A stretch of 64,000 nucleotides of DNA. Source: a virus. Below the pieces are notes generated by a model that was not told the origin of the DNA, ran no database searches, and worked only from the letters and a program-made list of their open reading frames with translations. The position numbers and the translations under genes are program-made. Position 1 is the stretch's first letter. Every line of letters starts with the position of its first letter. Of this stretch, positions 34,643 through 35,622 are shown in pieces. The DNA is taken from IMG/VR virus record IMGVR_UViG_3300044974_000943; one strand, 5' to 3'.

Positions 34643-35146
34643 TTTTGATTTACCTGTTAATAGTAGGGCTAGGAATTGCGCCTAGCCATTTTAGTTTTAG
34701 TTAGCCGCTTACTTTGGCGGTCTTTACATCGGTCAGCGAGGAGCGAAGGATTTCGAGGCGACCATTACGGACAGCGCCGTTTAGCTTCGTTCCTTTGATT
34801 TTCTCGCCATTGTCAATCTTATTGATGAGGCTTTCAGCTTGAGAAACCCAAACTTCAGCATCATTGATAGCAAGTGCCAATAATTCGCGATAGTCTTCGT
34901 TCGAGATAAATTCAGGCTCTTCGGTAACTGGCTCAACTTCTTCGATTGCTGCCAATACTTGTTGTGCAATTTCAGGCTGGTATACGACTGTGGTTTCTTC
35001 AGGAGTAGGCATTTGTTTGTAGTTCTTAAAAGCTCGATTGCTTAATTAATATAACGTGTTGAGCAGGGCAGGTCATCTATCGCGAGAAGGAGTTAAACGG
35101 AAACCGCAAGTTGTTCTTTTGCTCATAATTATCTCCAAATATGCAA

Positions 35147-35173
35147 AGAGCCAGCGTTTTTAGGGCTGGCTCT
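35147..35173 (-). terminator. intrinsic terminator after the tmRNA coding piece
   Basis: AGAGCCAGC/GCTGGCTCT stem followed by a short T run. Confidence 0.7.
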
Positions 35174-35177
35174 AGGG

Positions 35178-35231
35178 TTATACAGCTACAGGTGCAGCTT
35201 TTCTAACGAGTCGGCAAATGTTGTTTTTCGC
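35178..35231 (-). other. tmRNA tag reading frame (A)AKNNICRLVRKAAPVAV*
   Basis: Resume codon GCG after GTAAAT; resembles cyanobacterial ANNIVxFARKxAPVAA tags. Confidence 0.85.
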
Positions 35232-35336
35232 ATTTACTTTTTGTGCTATCTAGCTTCCGTTCGTGAAACTTCAGCGTGGTCTAGGCTCTCTTAAACTCCG
35301 AAACCTGCTTTGCCCCGTGAAATGGAGCAAGAGGGA

Positions 35337-35562
35337 CTTTTTATCTGCAATTACTATTTTTGCAGTCTGGACTATTCCTTCCGTTTACACGGTCTACCAT
35401 TTATGGGGTTAACCATCTGAGAGTTTTCATGTCTTGCGGTTTAGATTGTCTCAAGTCTCTAGACCTTCGTTTCAAGTTTCCCCGAAGTTTTGGTACGGTG
35501 TTGGCATTTCAGCTTTCGCCGTTTGAGATAGATTTTTTTGTTCGACTCAGGTTTACAAGTTA
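35337..35562 (-). mobile_element. group I self-splicing intron (226 nt, no ORF) in the tmRNA T-loop
   Basis: 5' exon GTTCGAT pairs with IGS GTCGAAC with U.G at the splice site; core AAACGGCGAA/CACCGTACC, R TAGAGACT, S AAGGAATAGTCC, P9 CTGCAA/TTGCAG, terminal G; removal restores GAGGG-TTCGATT-CCCTC. Confidence 0.9.
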
Positions 35563-35613
35563 ATCGAACCCTCGTAAATCCAAAAGAGTTACTAGACCTT
35601 CAATAACACTTTC

Positions 35614-35622
35614 ATTATAGCA
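35614..35622 (-). promoter_or_regulatory. extended -10 promoter (TGCTATAAT) for tmRNA
   Basis: Perfect TGnTATAAT just upstream of the acceptor piece. Confidence 0.7.

What the first reader, a model, noticed from the sequence alone, without database searches (positions are those of the whole stretch)
35145..35622. Phage-encoded circularly permuted two-piece tmRNA
Seen: a TGCTATAAT promoter, then the acceptor piece (helix-2 strand GTCTAG..ACTCTT, T-arm, TTGCTCC-A), a 6-nt spacer, the coding piece starting GGGGCAAAGCAGGTTTCG with the complementary AAGAGAG..CTAGAC strand, a tag ORF and a terminator. The acceptor stem has the G3.U70 Ala identity pair; CCA is not encoded. Established: permuted tmRNAs occur in alphaproteobacteria, marine picocyanobacteria and a few other lineages, and phage tmRNAs are uncommon. 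The RNA is also minimal, ending right after the tag with no pk2-4. Inference: the phage supplies its own ribosome-rescue RNA.
Basis: partly seen in the sequence, partly recalled or inferred. Interest (0 to 1): 0.85.

Follow-up and report, generated by a model that had tools for sequence, protein, structure and literature searches.

The report
Phage two-piece tmRNA split by intron
A freshwater cyanobacterial virus carries a back-to-front (two-piece) gene for the ribosome-rescue RNA tmRNA. The gene is also interrupted by a small self-splicing-type intron, and this combination is absent from the current tmRNA catalogue.

Summary
On the minus strand (35622 to 35145) lie an extended -10 box, the 3' half of a tRNA-like domain, a 6-nt spacer, the 5' half (GGGGCAA...), a tag frame (AKNNICRLVRKAAPVAV*) and a closing hairpin.

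ARAGORN and Rfam find nothing in the intact DNA. After removal of 35562-35337, ARAGORN calls a permuted tmRNA. Uninterrupted homologues in related phage contigs pass Rfam tmRNA_permuted (79 and 63 bits, cut-off 47) and nearly pass cyano_tmRNA (about 67, cut-off 70).

It is most likely a compact, ORF-less group I intron at T-loop position 7:
- a 7-bp P1 with U·G at the splice site, and a terminal G;
- a P7 with a bulged A;
- P3-P9 stems and three GNRA loops kept across natural variants.

A core model built only from eight cyanobacterial group I introns puts its best hit of the whole 64-kb window inside the insert (E 0.018). Rfam Intron_gpI does not detect it. Splicing is not shown: RNA-library contigs are unspliced.

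The virus (142 kb) resembles Pseudanabaena phages PA-SR01 and Pam2 and has no SmpB. Phage two-piece tmRNAs are already known. Permuted plus intron is a new variant.

The parts
35614..35622 (-). Extended -10 promoter box TGCTATAAT. The predicted start lies about 7 nt downstream and gives a short conserved leader (GTTATTGAA).
   Evidence: Read directly. An equivalent TGT-TAGTAT/TATAA box sits at the same distance in five phage homologues. It also aligns to the 5' end of the Rfam cyano_tmRNA consensus. The consensus scanner did not call it.
35563..35598 (-). Acceptor piece, 5' exon: helix-2 strands (GGTCTAG, CTCTT), linker, T-stem 5' strand GAGGG and T-loop nt 1-6 (TTCGAT).
   Evidence: It is 97.8% identical to PA-SR01.
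35337..35562 (-). 226-nt ORF-less group I-type intron at T-loop position 7. Intron nt 1 = 35562 (U); nt 226 = 35337 (terminal G).
   Evidence: P1 pairs exon GUUCGAU with intron GUCGAAC (nt 17-23), with U·G at the splice site. Only 86 of 20000 shuffles give this. The core model R1, built from 8 cyanobacterial group I introns, has its best hit of the window at 35471-35359(-), 18.2 bits, E 0.018. The same site is hit in PA-SR01. The stems are listed. Intronless alleles exist in relatives. Rfam RF00028 gives no hit.
35323..35336 (-). Acceptor piece, 3' exon: T-loop nt 7, T-stem 3' strand CCCTC, acceptor 3' strand TTGCTCC and discriminator A. No CCA is encoded.
   Evidence: It is 100% identical to PA-SR01.
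35317..35322 (-). Intervening spacer TTTCAC between the two pieces. It is expected to be removed by tRNA-type end processing.
   Evidence: The spacer is 6-10 nt in relatives and 78 nt (holding a tRNA-Trp) in L004. One search counts the gap from the acceptor 3' strand, so its figures include the discriminator A.
35232..35316 (-). Coding piece, 5' part: acceptor 5' strand GGGGCAA, D-loop analogue (GGTTTCGG), helix-2 strands AAGAG and CTAGACC, and a pk1-equivalent region.
   Evidence: The pk1 fold was not resolved here.
35178..35231 (-). Tag reading frame, GCG resume codon to TAA: AKNNICRLVRKAAPVAV*.
   Evidence: ARAGORN on the spliced sequence. There are weak Rfam hits on the tag region. Homologous in-frame tags occur in seven relatives.
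35137..35172 (-). Post-tag hairpin (GAGCCAGC / GCTGGCTC, 9-nt loop) followed by TTTGCATATTT. It corresponds to the post-tag helix of the family and is the probable terminator.
   Evidence: It aligns to helix 5 of RF00023. A hairpin of different sequence sits at the same place in all relatives.

Best explanation
This is a cyanobacterial-type, circularly permuted tmRNA gene of a Pseudanabaena-phage-like virus. Its T-loop is interrupted by a compact group I intron.

Proposed pathway:
1. One precursor is transcribed from the extended -10 promoter.
2. The intron folds: P1 forms with the T-loop exon, and a guanosine pocket forms in P7. It splices itself out and rebuilds the T-loop UUCGAUU.
3. Only then can the tRNA-like domain form, from the upstream acceptor piece and the downstream coding piece, held together by the acceptor stem and helix 2.
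4. Host RNase P cuts before G1 of GGGGCAA. The 6-nt spacer is trimmed and host enzyme adds CCA.
5. Host alanyl-tRNA synthetase charges the RNA through G3·U70.
6. Host SmpB delivers it to stalled ribosomes, which append AKNNICRLVRKAAPVAV.

Shown: the sequence anatomy, homology to permuted tmRNAs, covariation in the stems, and group I-type core features.
Inferred: splicing, processing, charging, tagging and any benefit to the phage.
For: tmRNA identity:
- ARAGORN calls a permuted tmRNA once 35562-35337 is removed, in both the window and PA-SR01.
- Uninterrupted homologues at the same genomic position in related phage contigs score 79.1 and 62.6 bits on RF04321 (cut-off 47). They score 67.7 and 67.0 bits on RF01851 (cut-off 70).
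- The acceptor, T and helix-2 stems covary in seven homologues. G3·U70 and discriminator A are invariant.
- The tag frames are conserved.

Intron identity:
- The insertion lies exactly between T-loop nt 6 and 7. This is the main subsite of known tmRNA introns (PMC11915505).
- There is a 7-bp P1 with U·G at the splice site (86/20000 shuffles) and a terminal G.
- Model R1 was built only from bona fide cyanobacterial group I introns. Its best hit in 128 kb of search space lies inside the insert, on the right strand. That hit aligns GAAGGU..AGAGACU and AAGgAAUAGUCCA and gives a P7 with a bulged A. The homologous site is also the best hit among the relatives' loci.
- RNAalifold recovers abutting P4-P5 and P6-P6a.
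- Natural variants keep three GNRA loops. One P8 pair changes UA to UG to CG.
- Intron and flanking exons are 95-100% identical to PA-SR01, against 79-85% for the neighbourhood.

Phage context: the source is a 142-kb virus record, 98% complete, related to PA-SR01 and Pam2.
Against: - Rfam Intron_gpI gives no hit even at E<=10.
- A second independent model, of the P3-P6 domain, ranks the expected site only fifth (9.8 bits, E 2.5).
- Only three near-identical intron variants exist, so covariation is thin. One P6a pair and the outer P3 pair are broken in PA-SR01.
- The intact window itself scores only 17.6 bits on RF04321.
- The phage genome has no SmpB.
- The tag ends in -AV rather than -AA.
Confidence: 0.8

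Rival explanations
1. The tmRNA gene is dead. The 226 nt are a non-splicing insertion that destroys the T-arm, and the locus is a decaying remnant.
For: Rfam Intron_gpI finds no intron. No homing endonuclease lies in or beside the insert. The gene downstream is reduced to a 17-codon remnant.
Against: All identity elements of the exons are intact. Exons and insert are more conserved between two phages from different continents than the flanking genes. Variation in the insert preserves stems and GNRA loops. The insert has group I boundaries and a group I core.
Confidence: 0.08
2. The RNA is a tRNA/tmRNA mimic used for something other than trans-translation, such as a decoy for host tRNA-targeting nucleases or a partner of the neighbouring tRNA-like RNA island. 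On this reading the tag frame is vestigial.
For: No SmpB is encoded in the phage. T-loops are non-canonical in several relatives: GGCAGTA, and an 11-nt loop. The tag ends in -VAV. Earlier notes describe other permuted tRNA-like modules within 4.7 kb; I did not test these.
Against: The tag frame is kept open, with conserved A/V-NNI...RKA.PVA(A/V) ends, in seven homologues. The resume-codon context matches the Rfam tmRNA consensus. G3·U70 is invariant.
Confidence: 0.08
3. The insert is removed, or the RNA is cut, by host RNases rather than by self-splicing. This would give a three-piece tmRNA whose T-loop stays open.
For: Two-piece tmRNAs show that the tRNA-like domain tolerates breaks. Splicing has not been observed.
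Against: The -1 U·G pair in P1, the terminal G and the P7/J8-7 core are specific to group I chemistry. No precedent for a break in the T-loop turned up in the papers read here.
Confidence: 0.03

Closest known systems
Cyanobacterial permuted (two-piece) tmRNA, Rfam RF01851 cyano_tmRNA / RF04321 tmRNA_permuted
   Same: Same gene order: acceptor piece, short intervening segment, coding piece. It also shares G3·U70, the helix 2 that joins the pieces, an ANNIV...PVAA-type tag, hairpins instead of pk2-4 after the tag, and a conserved -10-like box. Intronless phage homologues score 63-79 bits on RF04321 and 67-68 bits on RF01851.
   Different: It is encoded by a phage of a filamentous freshwater cyanobacterium. 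The T-loop is interrupted by an intron. The 5' hairpin and the last 3' hairpin of the cellular model are missing. The tag ends in -VAV. It falls just below the RF01851 cut-off.
Intron-form tmRNA genes (group I intron in the T-loop; Williams 2002; PMC11915505)
   Same: A group I-type intron at T-loop internucleotide position 7. It has -1 U paired to G in P1 and a terminal G. It lacks an ORF, as 96% of known tmRNA introns do.
   Different: All 883 catalogued intron forms are listed apart from the permuted form. None is from Cyanobacteriota (supplementary table). The smallest catalogued intron-form gene is 545 bp, and founding introns average 293 nt. Here the intron is 226 nt, the gene about 460 bp, and the host gene is permuted. 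Homology to those introns could not be tested.
Phage-encoded two-piece tmRNAs (e.g. OM43 phage Melnitz; PMC9004378)
   Same: A complete permuted ssrA in a large lytic-type phage genome, with no phage smpB reported.
   Different: Melnitz carries the alphaproteobacterial type, under a glutamine riboswitch. This one is the cyanobacterial type and carries an intron.
Cyanobacterial tRNA group I introns (tRNA-Leu UAA, tRNA-Arg CCU)
   Same: The core sequences are nearly identical: GAAGGUnUAGAGACU and AAGGnAUAGUCCAGA match at 14 of 15 positions each to two tRNA-Arg-type introns. The size class is similar.
   Different: Those introns sit in anticodon loops, have a P2 and pass RF00028. This one sits in a T-loop and has no P2. 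It has two extra hairpins between P3' and P8, and it fails RF00028.

Membership tests
tmRNA, permuted form | 7-bp acceptor stem with the G3·U70 alanine identity pair and discriminator A | tested here: met
   GGGGCAA pairs with TTGCTCC, followed by A. The feature is kept in all seven phage homologues despite changes in the stem sequence.
tmRNA, permuted form | T-arm (5-bp stem, 7-nt T-loop) directly 5' of the acceptor 3' strand | tested here: met
   GAGGG-TTCGATT-CCCTC, but only after removal of 35562-35337.
tmRNA, permuted form | Circular permutation: the 3' tRNA-like half lies upstream of the 5' half, separated by a short intervening segment | tested here: met
   The order is read directly. 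ARAGORN labels the gene 'Permuted'.
tmRNA, permuted form | Helix 2 joins the two pieces and is supported by covariation | tested here: met
   GGTCTAG pairs with CTAGACC, and CTCTT with AAGAG. Different but complementary sequences occur in L006, L016, L004 and Pam2.
tmRNA, permuted form | Tag reading frame with resume codon and stop, conserved among relatives | tested here: met
   AKNNICRLVRKAAPVAV*. Relatives: AKNNICQFSRKAAPVAA, VNNIVSFSRKATPVAA, AKNQIVKFARKSTPVAVAV and others.
tmRNA, permuted form | Score above the gathering threshold of RF04321 / RF01851 | tested here: inconclusive
   The intact window scores 17.6 bits, on the tag region only. PA-SR01 scores 31.9 bits. The intronless homologues L016 and L006 score 79.1 and 62.6 bits (cut-off 47), and 67.7 and 67.0 bits on RF01851 (cut-off 70). 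The spliced window sequence could not be given to Infernal here.
tmRNA, permuted form | Dedicated partner SmpB is available | tested here: not met
   There is no PF01668 match in the 98%-complete phage genome. SmpB would have to come from the host. This concerns the system, not the RNA gene.
tmRNA, permuted form | Processing into two pieces, alanylation and tagging of nonstop products | not testable with these tools
   This needs Northern blots, RACE, a charging assay or complementation.
Group I intron | P1 helix between the 5' exon end and an internal guide sequence, with U·G at the 5' splice site | tested here: met
   Exon GUUCGAU pairs with intron nt 17-23 GUCGAAC: 7 bp, with U(-1)·G17. This occurs in 86 of 20000 dinucleotide shuffles.
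Group I intron | Terminal guanosine, and exact restoration of the host RNA on removal | tested here: met
   The intron ends in G at 35337. Removal restores UUCGAUU, and ARAGORN then accepts the gene. Intronless alleles occur in related phages.
Group I intron | P7 guanosine-binding helix with a bulged nucleotide, flanked by the conserved J6/7 and J8/7 sequences | tested here: met
   G104-C194, bulged A105, then GACU/AGUC. R1, built from 8 RF00028-positive cyanobacterial introns, has its best hit of the window here (18.2 bits, E 0.018) and at the same site in PA-SR01.
Group I intron | P3-P8 and P4-P6 domains in the canonical order | tested here: inconclusive
   Stems P3, P4, P5, P6/6a, P8 and P9 are predicted and kept in three variants. 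One pair covaries. The independent P3-P6 model R2 ranks the site fifth, E 2.5.
Group I intron | Detection by Rfam RF00028 Intron_gpI | tested here: not met
   There is no hit at E<=10. This model is a detector, not a defining feature. Its seed holds no bacterial introns, and a bacterial tRNA-intron model found 20% more introns (bioRxiv 10.1101/2020.01.27.920355).
Group I intron | Self-splicing | not testable with these tools
   Contigs from three RNA libraries cross both junctions unspliced. No ligated junction was seen.

The most novel reading that the evidence does not exclude
This is a fourth tmRNA gene architecture: permuted and intron-bearing. The tRNA-like domain cannot form until the intron has spliced. 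Self-splicing, which needs guanosine and Mg2+, would therefore gate when the phage's ribosome-rescue RNA becomes available during infection. The same small clade of Pseudanabaena-type phages would be a hotspot of tmRNA gene remodelling. It holds a T-loop intron, a tRNA-Trp inside the intervening segment, expanded non-canonical T-loops and -VAV tags.
Probability: 0.3. Interest if true: 0.75.

Novelty: new variant of a known kind. Interest (0 to 1): 0.6.

Why it matters
tmRNA genes are catalogued in three forms: standard, permuted and intron-containing. This locus combines the last two. It does so in a phage and in the cyanobacterial lineage, where no tmRNA intron is listed.

It also explains why the standard tools (ARAGORN, Rfam gathering thresholds) and the published annotations of PA-SR01 and Pam2 report no tmRNA. 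That points to a blind spot: searches built on the standard exon order cannot find permuted genes with introns.

PA-SR01 is a cultured phage with a cultured host, so maturation can be tested directly. The order to test is splicing, then RNase P and 3' trimming, then CCA addition, then charging. The same system could show what a phage gains from its own tmRNA.

Tried and rejected
1. ARAGORN and Rfam at gathering thresholds on the intact window found nothing. The interruption explains this.
2. Rfam Intron_gpI gave no hit on the insert alone or on the whole phage genome at E<=10.
3. BLAST of the insert against 50,697 phage records at E<=10 found only PA-SR01.
4. Exact two-block pattern scans for more intron copies found none in IMG/VR or JGI metagenomes.
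5. One viral scan was wasted on a mistyped pattern. The corrected pk1 pattern found only the known clade plus L012 and L016, and nothing in 185,579 prokaryote genomes.
6. RNA evidence. Three metatranscriptome runs hold contigs confined to 35214-35592, all unspliced across both junctions. No ligated joint was found. Contigs cannot show absence, DNA carry-over is possible, and mature pieces are too short to assemble. This neither supports nor refutes splicing.
7. The host tmRNA form was not determined.
8. Model R2 (P3-P6 domain) was not discriminating.
9. The second R1 hit, at 59242-59292(+), lies over a gene start and looks like chance.
10. No homing endonuclease was found in ORFs next to the tmRNA.
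12. A full-length group I model (253 positions) could not be calibrated within the time limit.

Full report
**What is there**

The feature lies on the minus strand. Reading 5' to 3':

| Element | Coordinates |
|---|---|
| Extended -10 box TGCTATAAT | 35622-35614 |
| Short leader | after the box |
| GGTCTAG | 35598-35592 |
| CTCTT | 35588-35584 |
| T-stem strand GAGGG | 35573-35569 |
| TTCGAT (T-loop nt 1-6) | 35568-35563 |
| Insert, 226 nt | 35562-35337 |
| T (T-loop nt 7) | 35336 |
| CCCTC | 35335-35331 |
| TTGCTCC | 35330-35324 |
| Discriminator A | 35323 |
| Spacer TTTCAC | 35322-35317 |
| GGGGCAA | 35316-35310 |
| D-loop-like GGTTTCGG | within the coding piece |
| AAGAG | 35292-35288 |
| CTAGACC | 35284-35278 |
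| Region of about 45 nt | up to the tag |
| Frame GCG...TAA | 35231-35178 |
| Hairpin | 35172-35148, followed by TTTGCATATTT |

**Is it a tmRNA?**

- ARAGORN and Rfam at gathering thresholds find nothing in the intact window.
- A permissive Rfam run gives only weak matches of the tag region to tmRNA_permuted (17.6 bits) and tmRNA (11.5 bits).
- I removed 35562-35337 in a script and ran ARAGORN. It then reports a permuted tmRNA with tag AKNNICRLVRKAAPVAV*. The same holds for the homologous locus of Pseudanabaena phage PA-SR01.

The source record is a 142,452-base virus genome, estimated 98% complete. It is related to PA-SR01 (Singapore) and Pam2 (Lake Chaohu) at about 80-83% DNA identity over conserved genes.

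Fetching syntenic loci by neighbouring genes and by a pk1 pattern gave five further forms of the same gene:
- L006/L008/L009 and L016 are uninterrupted.
- L004 carries a tRNA-Trp inside the intervening segment.
- Pam2 and L012 encode CCA and have an 11-nt T-loop.

The uninterrupted forms pass Rfam tmRNA_permuted (79.1 and 62.6 bits, cut-off 47). They reach 67.7 and 67.0 bits on cyano_tmRNA (cut-off 70, E about 1e-15).

Across the seven forms the acceptor stem, T-stem and helix 2 change sequence but stay complementary. G3·U70 and discriminator A never change. The tags stay in frame with conserved ends. Membership in the cyanobacterial-type permuted tmRNA family is therefore well supported. The 'minimal' look (hairpins after the tag, no pk2-4) is that family's normal architecture (structure line).

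**What is the 226-nt insert?**

By the usual boundary rules it is a group I intron.
- The exon nucleotide before it is U.
- That U and the six exon bases before it (GUUCGAU) pair with intron nt 17-23 (GUCGAAC). This gives a 7-bp P1 with U·G at the splice site. Only 86 of 20000 dinucleotide shuffles of the insert offer this.
- The last nucleotide is G.
- The site lies between T-loop nt 6 and 7. This is 'position 7', the main subsite of the 883 catalogued tmRNA introns (PMC11915505).

The rest of the insert folds in the canonical order, in intron numbering:

| Element | Positions (intron numbering) |
|---|---|
| P3 | 36-39 / 110-113 |
| J3/4 | AA |
| P4 | 41-44, 46 / 63, 65-68 |
| Internal loop | A-rich |
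| P5 (short) | 50-51 / 58-59 |
| P6, abutting P4 | 69-71 / 98-100 |
| P6a, capped by GAAA | 77-82 / 87-92 |
| P7 | G104-C194, bulged A105, GACU/AGUC |
| Two small hairpins | between P3' and P8 |
| P8, with a GNRA loop | 171-174 / 179-182 |
| P9 | 198-203 / 213-218 |
| Tail | eight nucleotides, ending in the terminal G |

Rfam's Intron_gpI does not detect the insert, even at E<=10. I therefore made an independent test.
1. I collected eight bona fide cyanobacterial group I introns (RF00028 46-91 bits, seven of the eight above the 50-bit cut-off).
2. I modelled only their P7-P3'-P8-P7' core as model R1.
3. I scanned the whole 64-kb window, both strands, without filters.

The best hit is 35471-35359(-), inside the insert (18.2 bits, E 0.018). 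It aligns GAAGGU..AGAGACU and AAGgAAUAGUCCA. Among 75 kb of related loci the only hit below E 0.5 is the homologous site of PA-SR01. Two of the cyanobacterial introns match these two core blocks at 14 of 15 positions each.

A second model, of the P3-P6 domain, places the expected site only fifth (E 2.5). That half of the test is inconclusive.

**Variation**

Three natural versions of the insert are available: the window, PA-SR01, and a 95%-identical contig from an estuary RNA library.
- Of 18 variable sites, three fall in the 79 core positions. Two of those three are the two sides of one P8 pair, which runs UA, UG, CG.
- All three GNRA loops stay GNRA.
- Two G·U pairs become A-U.
- One P6a pair and the outer P3 pair are lost in PA-SR01.
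- Identity to PA-SR01 is 97.8% and 100% in the exons touching the intron and 94.7% in the intron. It falls to 90.6%, 85% and 50% further downstream and to 84.7% upstream. Neighbouring genes are 79-83% identical.

This pattern fits selection or recent spread with co-conversion. I cannot tell which.

**What is not shown**

- Splicing itself is not shown. Contigs from three metatranscriptome runs lie only within the tmRNA gene and cross both junctions unspliced. No ligated joint was seen. Contigs cannot prove absence, and DNA carry-over is possible.
- The phage has no SmpB, so any function depends on host SmpB, RNase P, CCA-adding enzyme and AlaRS.
- I could not establish whether the Pseudanabaena host has a one-piece or a two-piece tmRNA.
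- I could not establish the intron subgroup. The extra hairpins between P3' and P8 recall subgroup IA, and tmRNA introns are reported to have a P7.1 region. That comparison rests partly on memory.

**Comparison with what is known**

- Phage two-piece tmRNAs are documented: 53 of 133 unique phage tmRNAs in one survey, including the Melnitz example (PMC9004378).
- T-loop group I introns in tmRNA genes are documented too.
- The 2025 database lists forms as standard, permuted, intron and two 'no CDS' classes. It has no permuted-plus-intron class and no intron in 4,090 cyanobacterial genomes.
- Its intron search model assumes the standard exon order, so it would miss this arrangement.
- The PA-SR01 paper reports no tmRNA and the Pam paper reports none in Pam2; the records' locus is unannotated.
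- The same database calls a tRNA gene inside a permuted tmRNA's intervening segment 'unique'. L004 is a second case.

**Verdict**

The more interesting fact is the T-loop intron. I rate this a new variant of known kinds, with moderate to good interest. It can be tested directly, because PA-SR01 and its host are in culture.

Other notes of this scan had also flagged the intron. I reached that reading before seeing them.

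Noticed in passing
L004:9556-9830 (IMGVR_UViG_3300008121_000001): A related phage's permuted tmRNA has a complete tRNA-Trp (9607-9680; ARAGORN, and Rfam at 47 bits) inside the intervening segment, between the acceptor piece (...CCCGTCC-A) and the coding piece (GGGCGGG...). The 2025 tmRNA database describes one such case (tRNA-Ala) as unique.
   Followed up: partly
L002:9250-9500 (-), L012:1215-1430, L016:2875-3080 (-): Homologous phage tmRNAs have non-canonical T-loops: an 11-nt GGGTAGCAT(T/A)A in Pam2 and L012, and GGCAGTA in L016. 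Only the Pam2 type encodes CCA. ARAGORN misses all three, yet L016 scores 79 bits on RF04321.
   Followed up: partly
window 35178-35186: The tag ends in -PVAV here and in -VAVAV in Pam2 and L012. PA-SR01, L004, L006 and L016 end in -VAA. The last residue may change how fast tagged proteins are degraded.
   Followed up: no
window 35071-35124 (-): The ORF that follows the tmRNA is a 17-codon remnant here. In L006 and L016 the same start opens a longer frame. L006 has about 800 nt more between the tmRNA and the next shared gene. A lake DNA contig (run X7) has 443 extra letters at 35095/35098.
   Followed up: partly
window 35317-35607 compared with L001: Identity to PA-SR01 peaks at the exons touching the intron (98-100%) and falls with distance (91%, 85%, 50%). 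This gradient is like the co-conversion tracts left by intron homing, although the intron has no endonuclease gene.
   Followed up: partly
G000:C1 139166-139405, 67706-67834 and five weaker sites: The phage genome holds one clear GIY-YIG ORF, five weak GIY-YIG-like ORFs and one HNH_3 endonuclease ORF. All are free-standing, and none lies within 10 kb of the tmRNA.
   Followed up: no
window 10708-11844 (-), 33947-34642 (-), 37288-38052 (-): Pfam assigns an RNA ligase (PF09414), an ERF-type recombinase (PF04404) and a DUF7873 protein (290 bits). No PF01743 CCA-adding enzyme was found in the genome.
   Followed up: partly
L002:10040-10215 (-): Pam2 has a tRNA-like gene: acceptor GGCGAG..., a D-arm-like GGCGGAATTGGTAGACGC, T-arm GGGGA-TTCGATT-TCCCC, and 3' strand CTCGCC. 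About 90 extra nucleotides lie between the D and T regions. ARAGORN does not call it.
   Followed up: no
window 59242-59292 (+): Second-best hit of the group I core model R1 (13.7 bits, E 0.18). It overlaps the start of a minus-strand gene and looks like a chance match.
   Followed up: partly
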